A stretch of 62,927 nucleotides of DNA from an uncultured Caulobacterales bacterium (lineage in GTDB: Bacteria > Pseudomonadota > Alphaproteobacteria > Caulobacterales > Maricaulaceae), in NCBI GenBank assembly GCA_964352275.1, contig CAYGRF010000001.1:1-62927 (forward strand). The letters are read 5' to 3'. The translations under genes were made by a program, and so were the position numbers. Of this stretch, positions 41,728 through 60,754 are shown piece after piece (position 1 is the first letter of the stretch; each line of letters starts with the position of its first letter). Below the pieces are notes generated by a model. It worked only from the letters and a program-made list of their open reading frames with translations, did no database searches and was not told the DNA's origin.

Positions 41728-42339
41728 ATGGCCCGCCAAAAACGCAAACCCTGCGCTGAAACCGATGCGATCACTGAGCAACTGGGGAAAACCATACAAC
41801 GCCTGCGGACAGCGGATAAGTTATCACTTGGCGACTTATCCTCCATATCCGGCGTTGCCAAGTCCATGATTTCACAAATCGAGCGCAATGAAACGAACCC
41901 GACTCTCGCAACGCTTTCGCGTCTCAGCCAGGCTTTAGGTGTCAGCGTAGAAACTGTGTTCGCCCAAGATGAAAATACCGACACCCCGCTTGTGCAGCAT
42001 ACCCGCATTCAAGATACGCCGCTTTTGACAAGCGAAGACGGGCTCTGCGAGCTTCGCATTATCGGCTGGATCGAAACCGTGCAATGGACGCAATGGTATG
42101 ACTTCAAAGCTGCGCCGGGCGGACGCCTCGAAAGCTCTCCTCACCCCCACGGCTCGGTAGAAAACCTAACAATCCTCTCAGGCGCATTGCACGTCCATGT
42201 TGACGGCCACATATGGCATGCAAGCGCGGGCGAAACCCTGCGTTATCAAGCCGATAGACCGCATATGATCGTTAATAATGGCGATGTTCCCGCGCAGGCC
42301 ACTATGGTCAATATCCTCGCCCATTCAATTCGGGCGTAA
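41728..42339 (+). CDS. XRE-family HTH transcriptional regulator with C-terminal cupin domain
   Basis: LSLGDLSSISGVAKSMISQIERNETNPTLATLSRLSQALGV (HTH_3), and a C-terminal cupin (HPHGSVENLTILSGAL...G..H). Confidence 0.8.
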   Translation: MARQKRKPCAETDAITEQLGKTIQRLRTADKLSLGDLSSISGVAKSMISQIERNETNPTLATLSRLSQALGVSVETVFAQDENTDTPLVQHTRIQDTPLLTSEDGLCELRIIGWIETVQWTQWYDFKAAPGGRLESSPHPHGSVENLTILSGALHVHVDGHIWHASAGETLRYQADRPHMIVNNGDVPAQATMVNILAHSIRA

Positions 42340-42469
42340 TTGGGTCTATTGGTGTCTTTTTAATGCGAAAGTAACCAATCTTTCATTGGCCTTATCCACA
42401 TTGTTCGTTAGAACACATCGAGTCAGCCGCCCCAAAGCGGCCATCACGACCCAGGGTACGGACAAGACT

Positions 42470-45400
42470 ATGAAATTTAAGCATCTTTTGCTCTCCGCAG
42501 CGATACCGGCAAGCCTTATTGTGGCGGTGCCTTTATCTTTCGCGCAAACCGTTGTCGACGCTGACCGCACCGACCCTATTGTGACATCAACGGCTGGCAC
42601 CAATAGCACGCCTGACGATGTTACGATCAATACAAGCGTCAACATCACCCCGGCTAGTGGCACAGCCATAACTGTGGATTCCGATAATACCGTGATTTTA
42701 GGCGGCAATGTCACGATGGACGATACCAGCGATGTTATTGGCGTCGATCTGCAAGGCGGTAACACAGGCGATTTAACGGTGGCTGGCTCGATTTCCATGA
42801 TCGAGGATTTCACCGGCACGGATGATGACGGCGATAATGTCATTGATGGTGACTTTGCCGAAGGCACTGGCAAAACCGGCATTCTGATTTCCGGCGCGAG
42901 CCCATTTGCCGGGAATGTTACCTTGGCGACCACAGCGCGCATATCCGTCGAAGGCCAAAACTCATACGGCATTCGTATTGAAAATACGAGCGGCCTAACC
43001 GGTGACATCGATATGGGCGGCGTCATCAACATGCTAGGCCGCAACAGCCGCGGGCTTAGCCTTGAGGGCGGCGTGATTGGCAATGTAACCAATAGCGGAA
43101 ATATCACGACGCGCGGCGAGAATGCATCCGCGATTGTCGCATCCGGCGACATTACAGGACAACTCAATAATTCCGGCACGATTGCCAATTCCGGTTACCG
43201 CTTTACAGATCGTCCAACACTTGCCGGGCGCAACTTGTTAGGTCCTGAAGACTTTTGGCAAGCCGGTTCAGCCATTGAAGTGAACGGCAACGTCACAAAC
43301 GGCATCTTCCTCCAGCGCGTTGTCACCACAACCACCAATGACGATGGCACCACCACTGAAACCGTTGACGGTGTAAGTAATATCAATCAACTTGGCAGCG
43401 CTCCTGCGATCCTAATTGACGGTCAAGGCACACCGATTGCGATTGGCATTGTCGCAGCAATTACAGACCCCAATGACGCTAATTTTGTTGAAGCCGAGCA
43501 ATATGCTTTCGTCAACCAAGGCGTATTATCAGCATCCGGTATTTATAACGACTTCAATGCAACGGCTTTCGAAGTTAGGGACGCTACGCTTACGGGCGGC
43601 ATCAATAATACCGCTAACATGGTGGCGAGTGCATTCCGCAGCGGAAACCAAGAGGCGACCGCCGACACTGCGGGAGAGACAGGTCTTGCCCGGGTTATCG
43701 TCCTAGGCGATGGCGCGATTGCAGACCGTATCAATAATTCGGGCCTTATCATTGCCCAAGTCACCGAAGCGACAGATGAAGTTTACGCTGACCGCACAAA
43801 TGTCATAGCCGCCCGTAGTCTACAGGCGGTGGCTATCGATATCGGCGCGAATGCCTCCTTGTCGGAGATTGTTAACTCCAACGGCATTTCAGCAATTCTG
43901 ACAGGACGCAACGGCGAAGCCGTAGCCATTCGTGATGCCTCGGGAACTCTCACCCGTATTGACAATACTGGCAATATTTCCGCTCTCGGCGTGAGTTCTG
44001 ATGCTCAAGGTCTTCAAACCACAAGTTTCAATTTGATTGCGATTGATGTCTCCGCCAACAGCACAGGCTTTACGCTCAACCAATTAGTACCCGTCGACAG
44101 TGACACCACGGATGAACTCACGCCTGCTGACCCTACGATCAGTGGTGATATATTCCTCGGGAGCGGTGACGACACTGTTAACCTCGAGGCCGGGATCATA
44201 TCTGGCGCTCTGGGCTTCGGTGATGGCATGGATGCGTTTAATATTTCCGGCGGCTCCTCTTATAGCGGGAACCTATCAGATACAGACGGCAATCTTACCA
44301 TATCTGTGGCTGATAACAGCACGCTTATAAATACAACCGCAAGCCCCACAGACATTACATCCGCATCTTTTGATGCGACATCCGTATTCCGGCCCACGCT
44401 AGACGGCGCTACCGGCGAAGCCTCTACGCTCAATGCCTCCGGAGACATTACGTTTGCTGACGGCGCAACAATTTCTCCGCTACTGCGTAATGTGATCGAC
44501 TCTGCCAGCACGACATTCCGTATTTTGGATGCGGGCGGCACATTGACCGTTGGCAATGATCTGGGTTCACTCGGCGCGATACAGTCGCCTTTCCTGTATG
44601 ATACATCTTTTGCCATCGACCCGAATGACCCCAACGCCCTGATCATAACGCTCGACCTTCGCTCAACAGATCAACTGGGGCTGGACACGGTTCAAGCCGC
44701 CGGATTTAATTCCGCCTTCAATGCACTGCAAAACAATACAGATCTCGCCAACGCTTTCGTTAATATCACGGACGGTGCCGAATTTAACAGCTCACTTAAT
44801 CAACTCCTGCCTGAATTTGCCGCTGCCGCGCGGCAATTTATCGTGGCCAATGTCGACGGAGCCGTCGGCGCAGTCGGCACCCATTTGGACAATGCCCGCA
44901 AATCTCAAGCCAAATCTGGCGGTGTCTGGATTCAGGAATTTGCCTATTTTGCTGATCGCGATCTCGCGGGCCTATCCGAACAATATCGCGGCCACGGGTT
45001 TGGCCTGTCTGGCGGAATGGATACAGCGTTTGGCCCGTTCCATTCAGTCGGCGTGAACGTAGGCTTTGCCACAACTGAAATTGAAGACGTTGTCGGTGTT
45101 GATGAGCCTCTCGATGTGGTCACATTCCAGCTCGGCACATATGCAGGATATAGTTCAGGCAATCTCGGCGTCGAAGCCTATGCCGGTCTGGGGTTCAATG
45201 ACTTTGAATCCTCTCGCAAGATCGAGGTCGGTAGCTTTAGTGGCTCGTCTCAGGGCGACTGGACGGGGCAGCATTACAACACCTCCTTGCGCGCCGGTTA
45301 TGACCTTAAAATCAGTGATAAATTCTGGGCGCGTCCGGCGGTATCTGTTGACTATCTCAGGCTCACAGAAGACGGCTACACAGAAGACGGGCCGATTGGT

Positions 45401-45745
45401 ATTGCCTTGGAGGTCGATAAACGCACATCCGAGCTTGGCGGCGCGACAGCGATGCTGAACTTCGGCGCGACCTTCCAAGGCCGCCGCACATCGCTTAGCC
45501 CGTCCATCCGCATGGGCTACCGCAACGAATTTATCAATAGCGGTCTTGAAACCAATTACCGTTTCGCCGGACTGAACACACCTGCAACATTGATCGGCGA
45601 AGAATTCCCGTCCAGCGCTATTTTGCTTGGCTTCTCACTCTCCGCTGGCAGTGATTTCTCATCCCTCGGATTGGACATTGATAGCGACATTCGTGACGGG
45701 TTTATCCGTCACACCGGCCGTATTGTTCTCCGCTTGATATTCTAA
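42470..45745 (+). CDS. autotransporter (type Va) outer-membrane protein with long beta-helical passenger
   Basis: Signal peptide MKFKHLLLSAAIPASLIVAVPLSFAQT. Repetitive G/N/T-rich passenger with recurring xNxGxI units. C-terminal ~280-aa barrel ending ...GRIVLRLIF (terminal aromatic residue). Confidence 0.8.
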   Translation: MKFKHLLLSAAIPASLIVAVPLSFAQTVVDADRTDPIVTSTAGTNSTPDDVTINTSVNITPASGTAITVDSDNTVILGGNVTMDDTSDVIGVDLQGGNTGDLTVAGSISMIEDFTGTDDDGDNVIDGDFAEGTGKTGILISGASPFAGNVTLATTARISVEGQNSYGIRIENTSGLTGDIDMGGVINMLGRNSRGLSLEGGVIGNVTNSGNITTRGENASAIVASGDITGQLNNSGTIANSGYRFTDRPTLAGRNLLGPEDFWQAGSAIEVNGNVTNGIFLQRVVTTTTNDDGTTTETVDGVSNINQLGSAPAILIDGQGTPIAIGIVAAITDPNDANFVEAEQYAFVNQGVLSASGIYNDFNATAFEVRDATLTGGINNTANMVASAFRSGNQEATADTAGETGLARVIVLGDGAIADRINNSGLIIAQVTEATDEVYADRTNVIAARSLQAVAIDIGANASLSEIVNSNGISAILTGRNGEAVAIRDASGTLTRIDNTGNISALGVSSDAQGLQTTSFNLIAIDVSANSTGFTLNQLVPVDSDTTDELTPADPTISGDIFLGSGDDTVNLEAGIISGALGFGDGMDAFNISGGSSYSGNLSDTDGNLTISVADNSTLINTTASPTDITSASFDATSVFRPTLDGATGEASTLNASGDITFADGATISPLLRNVIDSASTTFRILDAGGTLTVGNDLGSLGAIQSPFLYDTSFAIDPNDPNALIITLDLRSTDQLGLDTVQAAGFNSAFNALQNNTDLANAFVNITDGAEFNSSLNQLLPEFAAAARQFIVANVDGAVGAVGTHLDNARKSQAKSGGVWIQEFAYFADRDLAGLSEQYRGHGFGLSGGMDTAFGPFHSVGVNVGFATTEIEDVVGVDEPLDVVTFQLGTYAGYSSGNLGVEAYAGLGFNDFESSRKIEVGSFSGSSQGDWTGQHYNTSLRAGYDLKISDKFWARPAVSVDYLRLTEDGYTEDGPIGIALEVDKRTSELGGATAMLNFGATFQGRRTSLSPSIRMGYRNEFINSGLETNYRFAGLNTPATLIGEEFPSSAILLGFSLSAGSDFSSLGLDIDSDIRDGFIRHTGRIVLRLIF

Positions 45746-53726: not shown

Positions 53727-54479
53727 CTAATCATCACCCCGATGATCTATCCCTAAGATACGATCAAGGGCAGTATGAATGCCGCTTAGGACAGCAATCT
53801 CCGGCCCCTGAACCATTTTTACATAGGAATCCATCCTGTAAAGGTTATCGATAAGGTCGTTTCTGAAACCGGCGCTCTCCATCATCAGCATAGGGTAACA
53901 GCTATGGCCGCCATAAGGCGCCGTGCCGAAACGGTCATAAGTGAGCGTGCTGTTAAGTGAAATCACTTGCGGATACTTGCGGTGCAATTCCACCGCATCG
54001 CCGCTAATTCTCATATTGAAATCATCTGTGGCCCGTCGCAGTTGGCTCAATAGCAAGATTGATTTGCGCAGGTTCTCATCCGAAATAATCGAAGCCCGGC
54101 CGCTCGCAATGAGTTCCTCCACCGTCGGGATAGACACCCTGCCCGGGCGGTAGATATGGGAAGCAAACACAGCATCACATTGATCGCGTGTCAAAGAGTC
54201 TACTGCGCCATCGCCAGACATAATTTCCGCGACTTCGGTGAGCAAACCGATTGTGGTTTTTAATTCTTTTTCAATCAACACATTTGCGGCTTCACCCGTG
54301 CCAATCTCAGCATGAAGCCGCTGCATGTACAGAAAATTATCAGCCCGGTCTGCTCTGCGATCATTCCAATTGGCCACTTGGATACCGACAAAAACACCGA
54401 ACACGACTATGATAAAATCAATCCCGACAGCGAACCAGTTTTCTTTTTCAATATGGGCCTTTATACGGCGGAAGATCAT
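53727..54479 (-). CDS. single-pass membrane protein, DUF6090-like, paralog P1
   Basis: MIFRRIKAHIEKENWFAVGIDFIIVVFGVFVGIQVANWN anchor plus a ~210-aa helical ectodomain. About three quarters identical to P3 (59223-59981) by eye. ATGA overlap with P2. Confidence 0.75.
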   Translation of the reverse strand: MIFRRIKAHIEKENWFAVGIDFIIVVFGVFVGIQVANWNDRRADRADNFLYMQRLHAEIGTGEAANVLIEKELKTTIGLLTEVAEIMSGDGAVDSLTRDQCDAVFASHIYRPGRVSIPTVEELIASGRASIISDENLRKSILLLSQLRRATDDFNMRISGDAVELHRKYPQVISLNSTLTYDRFGTAPYGGHSCYPMLMMESAGFRNDLIDNLYRMDSYVKMVQGPEIAVLSGIHTALDRILGIDHRGDD

Positions 54480-55237
54480 GGCGTGGCCTCGTCATGAGAG
54501 ATTTTTAGCGCCAGATCGAGCTGTTTATGAACTTCTTTGACCTGAACGAGCCAAGGCCCTAACCCATCGCGTATAAACGCATCAAAAGTGTCGGCGTTCA
54601 GCGCGATATCATTCATAAGATTCTGGTTCGTCCGAATATAGTCTCGATCACACGACGCGGTAAAGGATCGTTCAAATCCATTCTCACGGAGTTCACTAGG
54701 GTTAAGAACAGACTGCATCTTAAACGCATCGGGATATAAATGGGCAAGGTCGTGCATAGCGCTTTCCAGACCGATAGCAATTTCTAACGCCTCGCGGCGT
54801 TGCAGAAGTCCGACTAATGCTGTGTTTAGATTTGAGTTGCGCACGATATTAAGCCGTCCTGTGGCTTGCAAGCGCGATAAAGCCGGTAGGTCAACACGTC
54901 CAAGATATAAGGCACTGGATCCCGCTAAAGCCGTACATTCTCCATCACTCAAACGGCGTTCAGGGACGAGGCCAAACAATACATTCGTCGCCTCGGCAAT
55001 ATCGGACGCATAGAGCGTTCTATAACTGATGATGTTCGCTGTAAGCGCTTCCGCAGCTATCATTTCTTCGTGCAAGGCTTTAATCGTGGCCTGTTCGTCA
55101 ATGCGGTCTGATCTCGCCTCATTCCAATTGGCGACTTGCATACCAATAAAGACCCCGACAACCACGATAAAGAAATCAATCCCGACAGCGAACCAGTTTT
55201 CTTTTTCAATATGGGCCTTAATGCTGCGAAAGATCAT
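54476..55237 (-). CDS. single-pass membrane protein, DUF6090-like, paralog P2
   Basis: Same N-terminal anchor (MIFRSIKAHIEKENWFAVGIDFFIVVVGVFIGMQVANWN) with a divergent C-terminal domain. Confidence 0.75.
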   Translation of the reverse strand: MIFRSIKAHIEKENWFAVGIDFFIVVVGVFIGMQVANWNEARSDRIDEQATIKALHEEMIAAEALTANIISYRTLYASDIAEATNVLFGLVPERRLSDGECTALAGSSALYLGRVDLPALSRLQATGRLNIVRNSNLNTALVGLLQRREALEIAIGLESAMHDLAHLYPDAFKMQSVLNPSELRENGFERSFTASCDRDYIRTNQNLMNDIALNADTFDAFIRDGLGPWLVQVKEVHKQLDLALKISHDEATP

Positions 55238-55477: not shown

Positions 55478-56581
55478 CTATTTCGGCGCGCTCGACGCCC
55501 CAACAACTAACCGCGAGAATGTCGCCTGCGCGTAATCGCCGTTCTCTTTATCAACATCCCAATCACCCGTGCCGTTACAGGCCGCGTACCAGAAGCCGGG
55601 ATCGTTCTTTGTACTGCATTGATTGTAAATGCCGGCTTTGAAGTAAAGCGAATCGCCGCCGTAACTATACCGATTATCAAGCGCGTCCACATTGCCGTTC
55701 GCGTCAATATTGTTGGCTAGATTGATCGCGTACTCGGCGGCTGGGCTACCGGCCCGCTCAAAAGTTAAATACATTGTATTTTGATGGACATTAACAACGT
55801 AGCTAAATTCTTCGCCCAGCGCGATACCGCCTTCGCCGGGATCAGCCGGATTGTCCCATAAATTACCCCACACAGGATAGGCTATATCTGTGCGGTCGGG
55901 ATTATCTTTCGCGAGGTTACGTTCATACGTCCAGAATACAGAGCCTGTATCGTGATCCGGCCATTTCTTATAATAGATTTTTAGCGGTTCATTCCCAAAG
56001 CCGAAACCGCTCTTAGTGCTCTCATATTTCACAGCGTGAATTTGTCCGATAACCGCTGAAAAAGCTGGCTTTTTGCTAGGGTTTTCCGCCCGGCGCGCGA
56101 CATGATCAACGGTGAGCGTGGCTTCCATTTTGCCGCCGACAGAGCCAAATTTATCAGAGTCTTTGCGCGCAAGCACGGCGAAATTATTGGCCGCACTGTG
56201 CGTTTTTATTCTACGGTTTTTACCGCGCAGCATATAGCGCAGTTCGCTACGTGTGTTCGTCGTATTTTTGGTCTTGGCCCCTTTATTGGGCGCGGTGAAA
56301 ACCATCCGGTTTTGCTCATCCAAATAAAAGAAATTCGGATGGGAATATGTCTCGAGGTCTTTCACGGAAATACTATCGACCTTTCCGTCATTATTTTCAT
56401 CGACCGGCAGCGTGATGTTCCAGTGGCTCAGGTCAAACTGGCTGGCGGGCGCAAGCGATTTATCTTTGATGCCTTTGCTCTGCGCCGAAGCCGCCGCCGG
56501 AAATGCCATCAGGATCAAAGCTGCTAAGCCAGCCGAGCCAAAACACATGCGCCGTAATCGTTTATCTATCATCATAGTCAT
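55478..56581 (-). CDS. exported polysaccharide lyase family 7 (alginate lyase-like)
   Basis: Signal peptide ...AFPAAASAQ. PL7 signature strings RSELR, GQIH and YFKAGIYNQ. The start is ambiguous among ATGs at 56581, 56575 and 56572. Confidence 0.75.
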   Translation of the reverse strand: MTMMIDKRLRRMCFGSAGLAALILMAFPAAASAQSKGIKDKSLAPASQFDLSHWNITLPVDENNDGKVDSISVKDLETYSHPNFFYLDEQNRMVFTAPNKGAKTKNTTNTRSELRYMLRGKNRRIKTHSAANNFAVLARKDSDKFGSVGGKMEATLTVDHVARRAENPSKKPAFSAVIGQIHAVKYESTKSGFGFGNEPLKIYYKKWPDHDTGSVFWTYERNLAKDNPDRTDIAYPVWGNLWDNPADPGEGGIALGEEFSYVVNVHQNTMYLTFERAGSPAAEYAINLANNIDANGNVDALDNRYSYGGDSLYFKAGIYNQCSTKNDPGFWYAACNGTGDWDVDKENGDYAQATFSRLVVGASSAPK

Positions 56582-56782
56582 ACCCTCTATAATTGGACTG
56601 GCGTTCTTATAGGCCAATTTATATCATGATATATACCAATTACAAATCAGAGTACACTATCCATAACAGCCTCTTATAGATCCGCATTTAGCGCGATAAA
56701 ATCGGTGAAACGCGGCAGCAAATATATTCGCAAATTGCTATATTCTACGATCTGACTTATCCTGCTACCCGGAGTGGTGTTT

Positions 56783-59203
56783 ATGATAAAACAATTGGGA
56801 GTTCTTGTTGTCTTCATATGCCTCATCGCATTTGCAGGCGCGGCGTCGGCGCAGACAGGGCTTGAGGCATTGAAGAACAAACCCGCGATCCCAACACTGG
56901 ATCAACAGGACATAGAGGAAAAGTTCTTCGCCAAGGACAGCAACACATCTTTTGAATATACTGGCGATTGTGAAGAACCGCCGCGCCCGACCGCCACCTG
57001 CACATTAGCAAAGCGGACATTTGGGGCGGTCGCTGTGACGCGGCAAGCCGCGCCATTTCAAGTTCAAATTATCAATACATTCTCGGATGCGCAGCTTAAG
57101 CCCTATCAGGAAGCGGGGCAGCCTTTGTGGGAGCTTCGTCATGTATGTGGAGGCGCGCTCATCGACCGGCATTGGGTGCTAAGCGCAGCGCATTGTTTCC
57201 GCAAGGGCCAACCCTATCTAGTGCGCCTTGATGTCGATAATATCTCCCAAACCAACACTATGACCTATGACGTGGATGAGATTATCCCCCATGAGGCCTA
57301 TAACGCAGAGACACTAGAAAATGACATCGCTCTTATCCGCCTCAAACCCGTGAACAATGGTATGGTTATCGAGCCCTATGACCCGTGGAAAAAGACCAAA
57401 GATAGTAAAAATCAAATTGTCTATGCAGATATAAGCGCGGATGGCCGCCGATTGATAACCATTTCGGACGGCGCCGCGAAATTATGGGACACAGAGACCG
57501 GCAAGCAGCTCTATCATTCGCTGGACATGTTGGAACAAAACCCCGTGATGACCCCTTCCTCGCACCAACTCTTGGGCGTGGACACAGAGGCCGCATGGGT
57601 TGTTGACCTTGAGACGGGGGAAGAGGATGAAATTTATCAGCACAGCACGCCGATAAAAGCAGCAGACTTTAGCCCTGATAATAGCCGCGCTCTGACCATG
57701 GGGCATGACGGCAATATTGTTATATGGGATCGCGCCGCCAAATCATACCGTGCAAGACTCTCGCATGGCCCGGGTCTTTTAACAGCAAAGTTTGCGGCTC
57801 CGGACTATGTGATAACGACCGCCGAAACCGGGGATGCTCGCGCTCACGCTACGCATACGGTCAAACTTTGGTACGCAGGCCACCATTCCAATAGACCGAT
57901 TAGGCAGTTTGACAATGTCCATAAAGAAAACCCCTATTATGTTTTAAGCCATGAGAATACTGTGATGGTAAGACAGCACAATCAATTGGTCATTGCCAAC
58001 TTGGAAACAGGCCAAGACCTACGCAGCATGGACATGCCAAACCCGGATTGGCAAATGACCCCGCCTCATGAAGACGGCACCATAATGACGTGGGATGGCA
58101 GCGGCATCGTCACACATTGGGATATAAAATCCGGGCAGATTAAGCAGCAGTGGAAAGATTGGTTACTTGAATCAATTATTGGCTATGACCCTAAGACAAG
58201 GCACCTTTTAGGATGGCAGGGGGTTCGAACTGTTGAAATCGTTGATAATCGCGGGGCTTATATGTCAACACTTCCGCCGAAAGTGACAGTATGGGACGCC
58301 GATAGCGGCGGAAAAATAAATACCCCTACGCTCACCAACATCAACACACCGAGTGCGAACATTCATTTTATCAATGATGGCAAACACATAGTGATAACTT
58401 CACCGCTTGGCAGGAGCGAGGTGCTGAACGCTGCAAACGGCAAGCGCGTTTTTCAAATCAATCACAGCCTACCGGTTTCCGAAATACGGCCTTCCAAAAG
58501 CGGGAAATACCTCTTAAGCCGCAGTGACTTTGGCTTAGCCGATGTGTGGGTTTCAAAGACAGGGAAAGCCGCCGCCCGGTTTTTTCACGGCGCGTCTGTC
58601 AGCGGCATGAAGCTTTATGATAATGATACGCGTTTATTGACGTGGGGGCTATCCGGCAAAGCGCGGCTTTGGGATATTGAGACCGGTAAGCAATTATCCC
58701 ACTTTGTCCACTTTGGCGGCGAGGACAACGAAACACGCAGCAGCACCGAAACGCCCCGCAACCCCTCGCTTGTGAGTATTGTCAATTTCAGCCAATCCCC
58801 TGCGGATCTGTCCATAGACCAGACCGTCACAACACTGGGCTGGGGCAAAACCAAGCCGGTCAGCCGCGAGTATGAGCCTTCCGCTGTGCTGAGAATGATT
58901 GGTCTCTCGGTTATTGACCACGAAAAGTGTGAAACATTGATGGGCGACTCGGAAGAGATTGGTGACGATGTCTTTTGTGCATACGCAGATGACCGCAAAA
59001 CATGCTATGGCGATAGCGGCGGCCCGGTTATCGGCGGCGAAAAAGTCGTCGGCATCGTTAGCCGCGGCTCCGCCGGCTGCGGCGACGGCATGCCTAGCCT
59101 CTACACAAACGTCGCGAAATATGCAGGCTGGATTAAAAAGACAAGTTGCGCCGAAAATATACAAGGAACGCGGCCGGATTATTGCGAGCATGGTACAGAA
59201 TAA
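56783..59203 (+). CDS. secreted trypsin-fold serine protease with a ~470-aa WD40-like repeat region nested inside the catalytic domain
   Basis: GGAG lies 8 nt before the ATG at 56783. Signal peptide ...AFAGAASAQ. WVLSAAHC (His) and ENDIALIRL (Asp) are in the N-terminal part. TTLGWG and CYGDSGGP (Ser) appear only after ~470 aa of repeats such as AKLWDTETGKQL and ARLWDIETGKQL. Confidence 0.8.
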   Translation: MIKQLGVLVVFICLIAFAGAASAQTGLEALKNKPAIPTLDQQDIEEKFFAKDSNTSFEYTGDCEEPPRPTATCTLAKRTFGAVAVTRQAAPFQVQIINTFSDAQLKPYQEAGQPLWELRHVCGGALIDRHWVLSAAHCFRKGQPYLVRLDVDNISQTNTMTYDVDEIIPHEAYNAETLENDIALIRLKPVNNGMVIEPYDPWKKTKDSKNQIVYADISADGRRLITISDGAAKLWDTETGKQLYHSLDMLEQNPVMTPSSHQLLGVDTEAAWVVDLETGEEDEIYQHSTPIKAADFSPDNSRALTMGHDGNIVIWDRAAKSYRARLSHGPGLLTAKFAAPDYVITTAETGDARAHATHTVKLWYAGHHSNRPIRQFDNVHKENPYYVLSHENTVMVRQHNQLVIANLETGQDLRSMDMPNPDWQMTPPHEDGTIMTWDGSGIVTHWDIKSGQIKQQWKDWLLESIIGYDPKTRHLLGWQGVRTVEIVDNRGAYMSTLPPKVTVWDADSGGKINTPTLTNINTPSANIHFINDGKHIVITSPLGRSEVLNAANGKRVFQINHSLPVSEIRPSKSGKYLLSRSDFGLADVWVSKTGKAAARFFHGASVSGMKLYDNDTRLLTWGLSGKARLWDIETGKQLSHFVHFGGEDNETRSSTETPRNPSLVSIVNFSQSPADLSIDQTVTTLGWGKTKPVSREYEPSAVLRMIGLSVIDHEKCETLMGDSEEIGDDVFCAYADDRKTCYGDSGGPVIGGEKVVGIVSRGSAGCGDGMPSLYTNVAKYAGWIKKTSCAENIQGTRPDYCEHGTE

Positions 59204-59222: not shown

Positions 59223-59981
59223 TTAACCGGGCTTTCCATTACTATGATCAAAACCTAAAATCCGATCCAAAGATCTATGTATATCAGACAATACCGCGAT
59301 TTCGGGTTCATTGACCAATTTGACGAATGAATCCATCCGGTAAAGATTATCTATGAGATCATTTTTGAAGCCCGGATTATTTTTCATGAGCTCAAGATGG
59401 CATTTGTGCCCGCCATATGGCGCAGACCCGAAACGATCATAGGTCAACGTACTATTGAGAATAATGACCTCCGGATATTTCCGGTGCAATTCCAAGGCAT
59501 CATTACTGATGCGTCCATTAAAATCATCCGTTGCGCGGCGCAGTTGCGTTAGCCGCAGAATATCTCTGCGTAATGTATCATCCGATATAACCGACGCGCG
59601 GCCACTTGCGATCAACTCCTCAATGGTTGGAATGGAAACACGTCCCGGGCGATAAATATGCGAAGCGAAAACAGCATCGCATTGATCCCGCGTAAGAGGT
59701 CCGGTTGGGACATCACTGGAAACAATGCCCGCAACTTCAGTCAGGAGCCTAACAGTTTCATTAAGCTCCAAAAGGATAGGAATATTCGCAGCATCCACCG
59801 CTCCCATCTCGTCATGAAGCCGTTGCATATAGAGGAAATTATCAGCGCGGTCTGCCCGAGCAGTATTCCAATTGGCCACTTGGATACCTATGAAAACACC
59901 GAACACAACGATAAGGAAATCAATCCCAACAGCGAACCAGTTCTCTTTCTCAATATGGGCTTTGATGCGGCGGAAGATCAT
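59223..59981 (-). CDS. single-pass membrane protein, DUF6090-like, paralog P3
   Basis: MIFRRIKAHIEKENWFAVGIDFLIVVFGVFIGIQVANWN. Close paralog of P1. ATGA overlap with P4. Confidence 0.75.
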   Translation of the reverse strand: MIFRRIKAHIEKENWFAVGIDFLIVVFGVFIGIQVANWNTARADRADNFLYMQRLHDEMGAVDAANIPILLELNETVRLLTEVAGIVSSDVPTGPLTRDQCDAVFASHIYRPGRVSIPTIEELIASGRASVISDDTLRRDILRLTQLRRATDDFNGRISNDALELHRKYPEVIILNSTLTYDRFGSAPYGGHKCHLELMKNNPGFKNDLIDNLYRMDSFVKLVNEPEIAVLSDIHRSLDRILGFDHSNGKPG

Positions 59982-60754
59982 GGTTTACCTTCTAATTCTG
60001 CATCAATTTCTTTAATGACATTTTGCCCTCTGACACGAAAAGAATCGTAAGCTTTTAAATTGAAAACAATTTGTCCTGTCCAGTATTGGAGTTCTTGTCG
60101 CAACATTGGATTAGACCGCAATGAGGTTAAAATATTTTCGATTTTATCATCACTCAAATTTTGCTCGCAATTCGTGAGAAACACCTCAAGGTCATTTCTC
60201 TCCCCGCCAACAGTCGAATGACAATTTTGCCATAAAGCCTGCGCGGCATCAGGCGGAAAAAGCCCCCTAACTGTTTGTCTGTATTGTGGAAATTCCGACG
60301 TCACAAGGCTGTCGGCACGCTCGTTTTTATCATAAACAATCATCGCATCTTTTAATGTTGGTGAACGCGGCAACCCAAGACGTAGCATCTCGTCAAAGAT
60401 TACGCGTGAACGCGCCTCAGCCGGCACCTGAGAGGCGATAAAAAAATCGACCAAAAGCTCCCAGCATTGACTTTCGCACGGGCCGTCAGCATCAAGAAAC
60501 GAAAGCGCCCGCTTACTGGAAGCAAGGATCTGCTCTCTGAGTTCATATTTATTATTTCCCACACGAATATTTTCCGTCATCTCGGCCCTTAGTTCGGAGA
60601 GATAGCCCGATTCGACTTTCAAAAATTGTCTGGCCTCATTCCAGTTTGCCACTTGCAAACCGATAAAAACACCAAAAACAACGATGATAAAATCAATCCC
60701 AACAGCGAACCAGTTCTCTTTTTCAATATGGGCTTTTATGCGGCGAAAGATAAT
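59978..60754 (-). CDS. single-pass membrane protein, DUF6090-like, paralog P4, probable ATT start
   Basis: The ORF track starts at the internal Met at 60658. The frame stays open upstream and encodes IIFRRIKAHIEKENWFAVGIDFIIVVFGVFIGLQVANWN, beginning with ATT at 60754. AAGGA lies 9 nt upstream and an in-frame TAA is at 60767-60769. Confidence 0.6.
   Translation of the reverse strand: MIFRRIKAHIEKENWFAVGIDFIIVVFGVFIGLQVANWNEARQFLKVESGYLSELRAEMTENIRVGNNKYELREQILASSKRALSFLDADGPCESQCWELLVDFFIASQVPAEARSRVIFDEMLRLGLPRSPTLKDAMIVYDKNERADSLVTSEFPQYRQTVRGLFPPDAAQALWQNCHSTVGGERNDLEVFLTNCEQNLSDDKIENILTSLRSNPMLRQELQYWTGQIVFNLKAYDSFRVRGQNVIKEIDAELEGKP

What the first reader, a model, noticed from the sequence alone, without database searches (positions are those of the whole stretch)
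57350..58765. Trypsin catalytic domain split by a ~470-aa WD40-like propeller inserted between the Asp and Ser halves
- In one uninterrupted ORF, His (SAAHC, residue 140 from the GTG at 56774) and Asp (ENDIALIRL, residue 184) lie in the N-terminal beta-barrel half.
- The matching second half (SLVSIVNF...TTLGWG, CAYADDRKTCYGDSGGP with Ser748, GIVSRGSAGCG, YTNVAKYAGWI) resumes only at about residue 665.
- The Asp-to-Ser spacing is 564 residues, against roughly 90 in ordinary trypsins.
- The insert has about 10-11 degenerate units of 40-45 aa, each ending in a hydrophobic-W-D-x-x-[ST]G-like motif.
- The motifs are AKLWDTETGKQL, VVDLETGEED, IVIWDRAAKS, VKLWYAGHHS, VIANLETGQD, VTHWDIKSGQ, VTVWDADSGG, VLNAANGKRV, DVWVSKTGKA and ARLWDIETGKQL.
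- The first and last motifs are nearly identical, as expected for a ring-closing propeller.
- The insertion point corresponds to the linker that crosses between the two barrels.
- I know of terminal trypsin-WD40 fusions but not of a propeller nested in the protease fold.
- It could gate substrate access or tether the protease to a partner, perhaps the flanking DUF6090-like proteins.
Basis: partly seen in the sequence, partly recalled or inferred. Interest (0 to 1): 0.8.

Follow-up and report, generated by a model that had tools for sequence, protein, structure and literature searches.

The report
Trypsin protease with nested beta-propeller
This gene encodes a secreted trypsin-type protease whose catalytic domain is interrupted, at the hinge between its two halves, by a large ten-bladed beta-propeller; it belongs to a real, undescribed bacterial family that in nearly every other genome sits next to a membrane TIR-domain immune-type receptor.

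Summary
One uninterrupted ORF (56774/56783..59203, +) matches Pfam Trypsin (E = 7e-42) in two pieces. Between them lie about 445 residues of WD40-type propeller, roughly 10 four-stranded blades.

It is not an assembly artefact. An exhaustive profile search found about 50 divergent protein clusters with the same nesting. His, Asp, Ser and three trypsin disulfides are invariant in all 50. AlphaFold2 models the whole protein confidently (pLDDT 83.8, pTM 0.81).

The insertion sits in the loop that starts the inter-barrel linker, the site of the trypsin Arg117 nick. A tree of catalytic cores suggests it arose once, within a clade of proteobacterial trypsins that carry Lys instead of Asp at pocket residue 189.

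In 27 of 28 propeller-bearing loci, and about 40 of 44 unsplit relatives, the protease gene lies beside a TIR-transmembrane-TPR gene. A small lipoprotein gene and a SLATT-like membrane protein gene often accompany it. The window copy is the single exception. It is an orphan beside an alginate lyase, and the proposed DUF6090 partnership recurs nowhere.

I found no paper on this family. The closest precedents are S46 peptidases and prolyl oligopeptidases. Verdict: a real new variant of a known kind, of fairly high interest.

The parts
56771..56774 (+). GGAG ribosome-binding site, 8 nt upstream of the ATG at 56783 (the probable true start; the GTG at 56774 overlaps it)
   Evidence: Read directly from the sequence. 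The database gene call P0001 is 806 aa and starts at the ATG.
56783..56851 (+). Sec-type signal peptide, MIKQLGVLVVFICLIAFAGAASA|Q, with an AxA cleavage motif
   Evidence: Identified by inspection. AlphaFold2 models residues 2-23 as a helix. Homologues P0002 and P0003 also have N-terminal hydrophobic leaders.
56852..57013 (+). Disordered N-terminal region (residues 24-77) carrying a Cys pair, C63 and C73, conserved across the family
   Evidence: pLDDT is below 50 for residues 21-77. C63 and C73 are at least 90% conserved in 50 homologues. The alignment is shown.
57014..57379 (+). N-terminal beta-barrel half of the S1 protease (residues about 78-199).
   Evidence: Aligns to bovine trypsin chain residues 21-93. 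Matches Pfam PF00089. pLDDT is about 80-96. H137, D181 and the C122/C138 pair are invariant in 50 of 50 homologues.
57380..57418 (+). N-side linker (residues about 200-212, PYDPWKKTKDSKN)
   Evidence: pLDDT is below 50 for residues 204-206, and the 10-residue block averages 62.
57419..58711 (+). WD40-type beta-propeller insert (residues about 213-643) with about 10 four-stranded blades. The last three blades (about 540-640; motifs NHSLP, FHG, LLTW) are the best-conserved part
   Evidence: Pfam WD40 and more than 15 beta-propeller families hit this region. The full-length model has 41 strands here. The insert modelled alone gives pLDDT 90.3 and pTM 0.87. Foldseek matches WD40 proteins at E about 1e-20.
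58712..58762 (+). C-side linker (residues about 644-660, GGEDNETRSSTETPRNP). It ends just before the residue equivalent to trypsin Arg117-Val118
   Evidence: pLDDT is below 50 for residues 648-654. SLVSIVNF aligns to trypsin RVASISLP.
58763..59152 (+). C-terminal beta-barrel half of the S1 protease (residues about 661-790). It contains Ser745 (59015-59017; Ser748 in GTG numbering), oxyanion-hole Gly743, Asp744 (position 194) and Lys739 (58997-58999) at pocket position 189
   Evidence: Aligns to bovine trypsin chain residues 116-221. Matches Pfam profile positions 103-220. G743, D744, S745, G746 and C716, C732, C741, C766 are invariant. Lys is at position 189 in 49 of 50 homologues.
59153..59203 (+). 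C-terminal tail with a Cys pair, followed by the stop codon
   Evidence: The Cys pair is conserved in at least 50% of the family (consensus).

Best explanation
**Shown**
- The ORF encodes a secreted or periplasmic, catalytically competent S1 (chymotrypsin-fold) serine protease.
- A WD40-type beta-propeller of about 445 residues and about 10 blades is inserted into the surface loop that begins the inter-barrel linker. This corresponds to chymotrypsinogen residues about 112-117, the Arg117 nick-site loop.
- The gene belongs to an unnamed proteobacterial clade of S1 proteases with Lys at S1-pocket position 189.
- The propeller insertion marks one sub-clade of these proteases, consistent with a single origin. 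Insert length then drifted between about 270 and 540 residues.

**Inferred**
- A closed propeller brings its two ends together, so it can occupy a loop without disturbing the host fold. Trypsin tolerates a chain break at this loop.
- The two barrels therefore reassemble into a normal active site, and the propeller hangs on two flexible linkers as a built-in protein- or ligand-binding platform. It recruits or selects the substrate, or docks the enzyme to a partner.
- Because it is anchored at the hinge between the barrels that share the active site, it may also couple binding to activity.
- In nearly all relatives the partner set is a TIR-transmembrane-TPR receptor-like protein, a small lipoprotein and often a SLATT/DUF4231-like membrane protein. 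The family most likely performs periplasmic proteolysis within an envelope-to-cytoplasm TIR signalling or defence module.
- The window copy keeps all family-conserved catalytic and propeller residues but has lost this linkage. It acts either with partners encoded elsewhere in the genome or alone.
For: **Split trypsin and propeller**

**Family and conservation**
- The catalytic triad, oxyanion Gly, Asp194 and three canonical disulfides are invariant in 50 of 50 homologues that share only 20-35% identity.
- Lys189 is present in 49 of 50.

**Structure**
- The full-length AlphaFold2 model has pLDDT 83.8 and pTM 0.81. Both protease halves score about 90, with 6-7 and 7 strands plus a C-terminal helix. 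Only the two linkers and the N-terminal region are disordered.
- The insert modelled alone has pLDDT 90.3 and pTM 0.87.

**Insertion site and origin**
- Arg122-Val123 of human trypsin(ogen) is a surface nick site whose single cleavage is not inactivating (PMC5487703).
- On a tree of catalytic cores, split members fall on one side of the midpoint root and unsplit members on the other.
- The Asp-to-GWG spacing is 309-580 residues in split members and 36-68 in unsplit members.

**Neighbourhood**
- TIR-TM-TPR lies adjacent in 27 of 28 split loci and 38-42 of 44 unsplit loci. The m338 SLATT-like gene is present in 12 of 28 split loci and 0 of 44 unsplit loci (examples).
- The partner's TIR_2 domain scores 7e-22 and is followed by TPRs.

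**Location**
- The signal peptide and the conserved disulfides fit an oxidising extracytoplasmic location.
Against: - No coordinates or predicted aligned error were available. The triad geometry and the position of the propeller relative to the active-site cleft were not measured.
- The placement of the 112-117 loop away from the cleft rests on my general knowledge of S1 structures, not on this model.
- The window, a 62.9-kb contig, has no TIR-TPR, small-lipoprotein or m338 homologue. The module-based function is therefore extrapolated from relatives no more than 35% identical.
- No canonical Arg|Ile-Val-Gly-Gly activation site is present. How, or whether, the enzyme is activated is unknown.
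- Trp215 is Arg in this copy, as in 8 of 50 family members.
- No experiment exists for any member of the family.
- PADLOC has no model for the protease, the m338 protein or the small protein. A defence role is only suggested by the TIR and SLATT-like content.
Confidence: 0.6

Rival explanations
1. Gating filter, as in prolyl oligopeptidase or S46 peptidases. The propeller packs over the active-site cleft and admits only small or unfolded substrates, or only substrates threaded through or past the propeller.
For: - Both known protease families with a large domain nested in the catalytic domain use it to cover the active site. In S46 the helical domain 277-573 covers the cleft (PMC4021333). For S9 prolyl oligopeptidases this is from my own knowledge.
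- A pTM of 0.81 suggests a defined, not floppy, arrangement of the domains.
Against: - The insertion loop is the Arg117 nick-site loop at the start of the inter-barrel linker. By my own recollection of S1 structures it is not adjacent to the cleft.
- Both linkers have low confidence.
- Unsplit relatives work in the same gene neighbourhood without any cap.
- Insert size varies from about 270 to 540 residues across the family. That is hard to reconcile with a precisely fitted lid.
Confidence: 0.15
2. Nutritional exoenzyme in this genome. The orphan copy has been co-opted as a secreted digestive protease working with the divergently transcribed PL7 alginate lyase on algal cell-wall material. The propeller would bind the matrix.
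For: - The alginate lyase (PF08787, E = 8e-59) lies 156 bp upstream on the opposite strand.
- Both proteins have similar signal peptides, which explains inverted repeat I1.
- The lyase-protease pair is bracketed by a duplicated two-gene unit, as if moved together.
- The TIR-TPR cassette is absent.
Against: - No other family locus pairs the protease with an alginate lyase.
- The copy retains the family-specific Lys189 and the conserved propeller motifs, H561 in NHSLP, G543 and G584. That argues for the ancestral interaction being kept.
- A single adjacency is weak evidence.
Confidence: 0.15
3. Catalytically dead scaffold. The trypsin halves serve only as a binding module, as in many conflict-system trypsin domains.
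For: Inactive trypsin domains are common in some bacterial conflict systems (PMC7159879). No canonical zymogen-activation N-terminus is present.
Against: His, Asp, Ser, Gly193 and Asp194 are invariant in 50 of 50 homologues despite 20-35% overall identity. This is the signature of selection on catalysis.
Confidence: 0.04
4. Assembly chimera or frameshift-fused genes. The nesting would be an artefact of joining a WD40 gene to trypsin fragments.
For: None beyond the rarity of the architecture in word-indexed searches, where only 2 full-length hits appeared.
Against: - The same architecture occurs in about 50 clusters and 23 reference genomes.
- Independent assemblies carry the same gene.
- GC content is even across the ORF.
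- The frame is uninterrupted.
- The insertion point is the same throughout the family.
Confidence: 0.01

Closest known systems
S46 peptidases (DAP BII, DPP7, DPP11), clan PA
   Same: - They have a chymotrypsin double-barrel catalytic domain interrupted between the catalytic Asp and Ser by a large foreign domain. In DAP BII the catalytic domain is residues 25-276 plus 574-722, with the insert at 277-573 and the triad His86, Asp224, Ser657 (PMC4021333).
- They are secreted or periplasmic enzymes of Proteobacteria and Bacteroidetes.
   Different: - Their insert is an all-helical domain unique to S46, not a WD40 propeller.
- It covers the cleft and turns the enzyme into a dipeptidyl exopeptidase.
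- There is no detectable sequence relationship beyond the clan. No Peptidase_S46 hit appeared in the Pfam scan at E <= 1.
- Whether the two insertion points are topologically equivalent was not tested.
Prolyl oligopeptidase family S9 (POP, oligopeptidase B, DPP-IV)
   Same: A serine peptidase whose catalytic domain is formed from N- and C-terminal segments with a beta-propeller between them. The propeller controls substrate access (my own knowledge; related papers are listed).
   Different: - The catalytic domain is an alpha/beta-hydrolase with Ser-Asp-His order, not a chymotrypsin fold.
- The propeller is an unclosed 7- or 8-bladed non-WD40 type.
- There is no sequence relationship. Only a sub-threshold DPPIV_N hit appeared, at 13 bits.
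Ordinary bacterial S1 trypsins, in particular the unsplit Lys189 trypsins of Steroidobacteraceae, Sphingomonadales and Parvularculaceae (loci L035-L079), and P0007
   Same: - They share the catalytic core, the disulfides, the RKTCxGDSGGP motif with Lys189, and the N-terminal Cys-pair region.
- They share the neighbouring TIR-TM-TPR gene.
   Different: - They have no insert. The Asp-to-GWG spacing is 36-68 residues, against 505 here.
- They often occur as two tandem paralogues.
- They have no m338 SLATT-like neighbour.
Terminal trypsin + WD40/TPR fusions of bacterial conflict systems (STAND/VMAP-type, e.g. P0048)
   Same: A trypsin-fold peptidase is combined with WD40 repeats in one polypeptide, and the systems are associated with TIR and SLATT components (PMC7159879; P0048).
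   Different: - Those proteins are cytoplasmic and NTPase-centred.
- Their domains are in series, not nested.
- Their trypsin is of the Trypsin_2 type and often inactive.
- Here the protein is exported, has no NTPase, and the propeller lies inside the protease fold.
Drosophila Easter / Spatzle / Toll pathway (functional analogy for the cassette found in relatives)
   Same: An extracytoplasmic trypsin-fold protease, a small disulfide-containing secreted protein, and a single-pass membrane receptor with a cytoplasmic TIR domain (cassette composition; pathway from my own knowledge).
   Different: - This is purely an analogy. No homology of the ligand or the ectodomain is shown, and no cleavage has been demonstrated.
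- The window itself lacks the receptor and the small protein.

Membership tests
Peptidase family S1 (PF00089 Trypsin; clan PA) | Significant match to the family profile over the whole catalytic domain | tested here: met
   PF00089 scores E = 7e-42 and 144 bits against a cut-off of 20.6, in two stretches. Bovine trypsin chain residues 21-93 and 116-221 of 223 are covered.
Peptidase family S1 (PF00089 Trypsin; clan PA) | Catalytic triad in His-Asp-Ser order within the motifs AAHC, DIAL and GDSGGP, with oxyanion-hole Gly193 | tested here: met
   H137, D181, S745 and G743 (ATG numbering) are present and invariant in 50 of 50 homologues.
Peptidase family S1 (PF00089 Trypsin; clan PA) | Conserved disulfides 42-58, 168-182 and 191-220 | tested here: met
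   C122/C138, C716/C732 and C741/C766 are invariant in 50 of 50. Their positions follow the trypsin alignment.
Peptidase family S1 (PF00089 Trypsin; clan PA) | Two six-stranded beta-barrels plus a C-terminal helix, with the triad assembled at their interface | tested here: inconclusive
   The AlphaFold2 secondary structure shows 6-7 and 7 strands plus helix 777-789. pLDDT is about 90 in both halves and pTM is 0.81. No coordinates were available, so barrel packing and triad distances were not measured.
Peptidase family S1 (PF00089 Trypsin; clan PA) | Zymogen activation that creates an Ile16-type N-terminus (Arg/Lys | Ile-Val-Gly-Gly) | tested here: not met
   No such motif is present. The family consensus before the first strand is YSxNAVxVP(R/K)xAAPFQ. 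This feature is not universal among bacterial S1 enzymes, so it does not exclude membership.
WD40-repeat beta-propeller (PF00400 and related) | Profile match above threshold and repeated 40-45-residue units with the [LIV]WD..[ST]G motif | tested here: met
PF00400 scores 36.6 bits against a cut-off of 27. More than 15 WD40-type propeller families hit at E = 1e-15 to 1e-5.
WD40-repeat beta-propeller (PF00400 and related) | Four-stranded antiparallel blades arranged in a closed ring | tested here: inconclusive
   There are 41-42 strands in groups of four, with pLDDT 90.3 and pTM 0.87 for the insert alone. Foldseek matches WD40 proteins at E about 1e-20, but the global TMq is at most 0.43. One 10-bladed ring cannot be told apart from another arrangement without coordinates.
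Peptidase family S46 (DPP7/DPP11/DAP BII) | S46-specific helical insert and S46 profile match | tested here: not met
   No Peptidase_S46 hit appeared in the Pfam scan at E <= 1. The insert is all-beta. S46 is an architectural analogue only.
Prolyl oligopeptidase family S9 | Alpha/beta-hydrolase catalytic domain (Peptidase_S9) | tested here: not met
   There is no Peptidase_S9 hit, only a sub-threshold DPPIV_N hit of 13.4 bits against a cut-off of 22.
Unnamed 'Lys189 trypsin + TIR-TM-TPR' gene cassette (defined here) | RKTCxGDSGGP motif with Lys at S1-pocket position 189, and placement inside the clade on a catalytic-core tree | tested here: met
   K739 is present, and Lys is at this position in 49 of 50 family members. 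P0001 nests with L012, L013 and P0125 in the split clade.
Unnamed 'Lys189 trypsin + TIR-TM-TPR' gene cassette (defined here) | Adjacent TIR-transmembrane-TPR gene, with or without a small lipoprotein and a DUF4231/SLATT-like gene | tested here: not met
   tblastn finds no homologue anywhere in the 62.9-kb window at E <= 0.01. Such a gene is present in 27 of 28 split loci and 38-42 of 44 unsplit loci. The rest of this genome could not be searched.
Known anti-phage defence systems (PADLOC-DB 2.0) | Match to a defence-system protein model | tested here: not met
   There is no hit for P0001, the m338 protein or the small protein. The TIR-TPR partner gives only generic TIR-domain hits, and homologue P0126 gives one marginal LmuA hit at E = 3.4e-4, 18 bits.

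The most novel reading that the evidence does not exclude
The family to which this protein belongs could be the extracytoplasmic arm of a previously unrecognised bacterial trans-envelope TIR pathway.

- A periplasmic Lys189 protease, in one clade equipped with a propeller sensor wedged into the hinge of its own catalytic fold, would process a small disulfide-looped lipoprotein or the receptor's TPR ectodomain.
- That cleavage would switch on a membrane TIR receptor, and in the propeller clade a SLATT-like pore.
- This would be a prokaryotic counterpart in logic to protease -> Spatzle -> Toll.
- The nested propeller would act as an allosteric switch that turns ligand binding into protease activation.
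- The window copy would be a detached sensor-protease.
Probability: 0.15. Interest if true: 0.9.

Novelty: new variant of a known kind. Interest (0 to 1): 0.68.

Why it matters
- **Protein architecture.** The chymotrypsin fold is one of the most studied enzyme scaffolds. A natural, conserved insertion of a whole propeller of about 10 blades at the hinge between its two barrels shows that this hinge loop is a permissive, evolvable site. The only nested domain I know of in clan PA is the S46 helical domain.
- **A possible natural switch.** The architecture offers a candidate for a ligand-controlled protease switch, the kind of design that protein engineers build by domain insertion.
- **An unusual specificity pocket.** The near-invariant Lys at pocket position 189 predicts a specificity unlike trypsin's. 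Acidic P1 residues would be the obvious guess.
- **A new gene cassette.** The tight linkage of the wider clade to a membrane TIR-TPR protein, a small lipoprotein and a SLATT-like protein defines an undescribed cassette. It joins periplasmic proteolysis to a cytoplasmic TIR domain. This makes testable the question of whether bacteria have protease-triggered transmembrane TIR signalling.
- **Experimental entry points.** Cultured carriers exist, such as Algimonas ampicilliniresistens, Algimonas arctica and Aurantiacibacter marinus.

Tried and rejected
- **Word-indexed homology search.** It found only two full-length relatives and would have suggested a near-unique protein. The exhaustive profile search corrected this.
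- **Alignments A2 and A3.** These mixed trypsin-only and WD40-only hits as input for structure prediction. In A2 the WD40-only rows spilled into the protease halves, and A3 was superseded. I used the 50-member family alignment A4 instead.
- **Foldseek of both models against the PDB.** The output is dominated by local WD40 repeat matches with poor global TM-scores, at most 0.25 for the full model and 0.43 for the insert. It shows that no solved structure shares the architecture. It could not give the blade-ring geometry or confirm the trypsin superposition.
- **Model coordinates.** They are not exposed, so triad distances and domain contacts could not be measured.
- **Library scans.** NCBIfam gave no family for the protease or the DUF6090-like neighbours. 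PADLOC gave nothing specific.
- **Partner-gene search in the window and L001.** Nothing was found. L001 turned out to be uninformative because its contig ends 137 nt upstream of the gene.
- **Apparent intermediate insert sizes.** These were tblastn artefacts caused by tandem trypsin paralogues.
- **JGI metagenome scan for close relatives of P0001.** It returned only two irrelevant 29-residue matches.
- **DUF6090 partnership.** I rejected it because that gene family occurs beside the protease in no other locus.
- **First/last repeat identity as a sign of recent duplication or ring closure.** I rejected it: 24 of 36 nucleotides match, and the flanks share 15 of 45 residues.
- **Literature searches.** They found no description of the family or of the cassette.


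Full report
**1. The observation**

The window has one uninterrupted ORF at 56774..59203 on the + strand, 809 aa from a GTG. A GGAG lies 8 nt before the ATG at 56783, and the database gene call P0001 is 806 aa, so the ATG is the likelier start.

Pfam matches PF00089 Trypsin at E = 7e-42 in two stretches. PF00400 WD40 scores above its cut-off, and more than 15 propeller families hit between the two stretches. Bovine trypsin aligns as chain residues 21-93 to query 121-193 and residues 116-221 to query 685-792. GC content is even across the ORF.

**2. It is a family, not a one-off or a chimera**

The word-indexed search found only two full-length relatives, P0002 at 33% and P0003 at 28% identity. 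An exhaustive HMM search of 1.84 billion cluster representatives with their alignment found many more.

Mapping bovine trypsin onto the hits shows about 50 clusters, of 599-902 aa, with the same split. The N-terminal part covers trypsin residues about 22-93 and the C-terminal part about 100-221, separated by roughly 270-600 residues.

In a 50-member alignment sharing only 20-35% identity, these residues are invariant: His137, Asp181, Ser745, Gly743, Asp744 and the three canonical disulfide pairs. That is selection for catalysis in an oxidising compartment.

All three proteins first aligned carry N-terminal hydrophobic leaders; here the leader is MIKQLGVLVVFICLIAFAGAASA|Q. P0003, P0126 and P0271 were each assembled independently in several runs. 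Sources give no name except one JGI "WD40 repeat protein". NCBIfam has no model.

**3. Structure**

AlphaFold2 on the family alignment gave mean pLDDT 83.8 and pTM 0.81.
- Both protease halves are at about 90, with 6-7 and 7 strands and the C-terminal helix expected of the chymotrypsin fold.
- Between residues 214 and 642 there are 41 strands in groups of four, about 10 blades.
- The only low-confidence parts are residues 21-77, 204-206 and 648-654. The first is an N-terminal region with a conserved Cys pair. The other two lie in the linkers.

The insert modelled alone gave pLDDT 90.3 and pTM 0.87.

Foldseek against the PDB returns WD40 proteins at E about 1e-20, but the global TM-score is at most 0.25 for the full model and 0.43 for the insert. 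No solved structure shares the architecture. The ring does not superpose on ordinary 7- or 8-bladed or tandem propellers.

The triad geometry, the ring closure and the position of the propeller relative to the cleft therefore remain unmeasured.

**4. Where the insert sits**

The N-terminal half ends just after the DIALIRL strand, near trypsin residue 111. The C-terminal half resumes at SLVSIVNF, which aligns with trypsin RVASISLP, residues 117-124.

The propeller therefore replaces the short surface loop at chymotrypsinogen residues about 112-117, at the start of the inter-barrel linker. In mammalian trypsins this loop holds the Arg117-Val118 nick site (human Arg122-Val123). It is surface-exposed, and a single cleavage there does not inactivate the enzyme (PMC5487703).

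A closed propeller brings its two ends together, so it is a natural guest for such a loop. That last step is my inference.

**5. Evolution**

A scan of one genome per species with the family-specific motif KTCxGDSGGP returned 72 loci.
- 23 carry full-length split proteases. They come from Caulobacterales (Hellea, Algimonas, Litorimonas, Hyphomonas, Henriciella, Marinicaulis, Maricaulaceae), Aurantiacibacter and unclassified Alphaproteobacteria.
- About 44 carry unsplit Lys189 trypsins. They come from Steroidobacteraceae, Sphingomonadales and Parvularculaceae.

The Asp-to-GWG spacing is 309-580 residues in split members and 36-68 in unsplit members. On a neighbour-joining tree of the catalytic cores, with the insert removed, all split members fall on one side of the midpoint root. 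P0001 groups with Caulobacterales and Hellea sequences.

This is consistent with a single insertion event followed by drift in blade number.

The window itself is alphaproteobacterial and chromosomal. Its EF-P falls in a 90% cluster with a named Alphaproteobacteria MAG, and its neighbours include ArgRS, IspH and RNase H. P0001 has no relative above 35% identity.

**6. Lys189**

Position 189 at the base of the S1 pocket, which is Asp in trypsin, is Lys in 49 of 50 family members. The motif RKTCxGDSGGP defines the whole clade, split and unsplit.

This predicts a specificity that is not trypsin-like. Acidic P1 residues are the simple guess, though as I recall the engineered D189K trypsin did not simply invert specificity.

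**7. Gene neighbourhood**

I clustered the ORFs around 72 loci.
- A TIR_2 / transmembrane / TPR protein of about 640-650 aa lies next to the protease in 27 of 28 split loci and in 38-42 of 44 unsplit loci. Its TIR_2 domain scores E = 7e-22.
- A 338-aa membrane protein with sub-threshold DUF4231 and SLATT_3 matches is present in 12 of 28 split loci and 0 of 44 unsplit loci.
- A small lipoprotein-like ORF of 63-139 aa, with a C-x8-C-x2-GGG motif in three examples, lies between the protease and TIR-TPR genes in most split loci.
- The nearest relative of P0001 (P0125) and of P0002 (P0122) both have all four genes.

The TIR domain keeps the S-x-W-V-x-x-E motif, and I recall that Glu as the catalytic residue of TIR NADases.

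The only split locus without the cassette is the window. No homologue exists anywhere in its 62.9 kb. Here the gene is divergent from a PL7 alginate lyase. The lyase-protease pair is bracketed by a duplicated two-gene unit of DUF6090-like membrane proteins, with 76% identity between copies 1 and 3.

PADLOC has no model for the cassette, and I found no paper describing it.

**8. Mechanism**

*Shown:*
- The protein is an exported S1 protease with an intact catalytic apparatus.
- A confidently folded WD40-type insert of about 10 blades sits in the hinge loop.

*Inferred:*
- The barrels reassemble as usual.
- The propeller, on two flexible linkers, serves as a built-in binding platform for a substrate, ligand or partner.
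- Its best-conserved part is the last three blades, residues 540-640, with the motifs (D/N)HSLP, FHG and LLTW. That makes this surface the likely interaction site.
- Because unsplit relatives live in the same TIR-TPR neighbourhood, the propeller is an added module, not a requirement for catalysis. Its co-occurrence with the SLATT-like gene hints at an added sensing or output layer.
- Anchoring at the hinge of the two barrels that share the active site leaves room for allosteric coupling.

A lid of the prolyl-oligopeptidase or S46 type is possible. It is disfavoured by the location of the loop, the flexible linkers and the twofold variation in insert size.

For the window copy, a co-opted nutritional role beside the alginate lyase cannot be excluded.

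**9. Comparison with known families and novelty**

- The protein is a member of family S1 by profile, triad and disulfides. It lacks the classical Ile16 activation motif.
- It is not an S46 or S9 peptidase. Those are the closest architectural precedents. S46 has a helical domain nested between Asp224 and Ser657 of a chymotrypsin fold (PMC4021333). S9 has a propeller nested in an alpha/beta-hydrolase peptidase.
- Terminal trypsin-WD40 fusions exist in cytoplasmic conflict systems (PMC7159879), but those domains are not nested.

I rate it a new variant of a known kind. The nesting itself is confirmed and conserved, the family is undescribed, and the linked TIR cassette is the most promising lead.

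Noticed in passing
Related loci: L002 392-6107; L006 6859-12600; L009 4569-10457; L084 6863-12592; L085 4554-10448; most of L012-L080: A conserved 3-4 gene cassette surrounds the protease. It comprises a TIR_2 / transmembrane / TPR protein of about 646 aa, a small lipoprotein-like ORF of 63-139 aa (C-x8-C-x2-GGG in three examples), and a 338-aa DUF4231/SLATT_3-like membrane protein. TIR-TPR is adjacent in 27 of 28 split and 38-42 of 44 unsplit loci. It is absent from PADLOC and from the literature searched.
   Followed up: partly
window 58997-58999 (Lys739 in ATG numbering, equivalent to chymotrypsin position 189): The S1 specificity-pocket residue is Lys instead of trypsin's Asp. This holds in 49 of 50 family members and defines the motif RKTCxGDSGGP, which retrieves the whole clade. 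It predicts a specificity that is not trypsin-like, possibly for acidic P1 residues.
   Followed up: partly
window 53727-55237 and 59223-60658: A two-gene unit of DUF6090-like membrane proteins is duplicated on either side of the alginate-lyase and protease pair. Copy 1 and copy 3 share 76% protein identity, and a 200-nt repeat family, D1, has 4 copies. The lyase-protease pair looks like an insertion into, or a recombination product of, a paralogue array. The fourth copy (59978-60658) appears to lack its N-terminal transmembrane segment in the listed ORF.
   Followed up: partly
window 56479-56513 and 56821-56855: A 35-nt inverted repeat, 80% complementary, is explained by similar signal-peptide ends on divergently transcribed genes (...AAASAQ in the alginate lyase and ...GAASAQ in the protease). 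It is probably not a regulatory hairpin.
   Followed up: partly
Loci L040, L051, L054, L063, L065, L071, L075: Unsplit Lys189 trypsin loci often carry two tandem trypsin paralogues next to the TIR-TPR gene. Propeller-bearing loci carry only one protease gene.
   Followed up: no
Loci L022 and L026 (Asp-to-GWG spacing 309 aa); L024, L027, L030 (397 aa); L020, L021, L023, L025, L034 (about 558-560 aa); L029 (580 aa): Insert length varies about twofold across the split clade, which implies propellers with different blade numbers at the same insertion point.
   Followed up: partly
window 56969-57001 (Cys63 and Cys73 in ATG numbering): A Cys pair in the otherwise disordered N-terminal region is at least 90% conserved across the family. 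No canonical Arg|Ile-Val-Gly-Gly activation site exists, so the mode of activation, if any, is unknown.
   Followed up: partly
window 42278-45745 (+): An 1155-aa ORF has a C-terminal autotransporter beta-domain (PF03797, E = 6e-39) and an unannotated passenger region.
   Followed up: no
L006 1-5698 and L084 1-5781: In two Caulobacterales loci the cassette lies directly downstream of a type II secretion gene cluster (gspF to gspN) and a prepilin peptidase gene. This may be coincidental synteny between related genomes.
   Followed up: no
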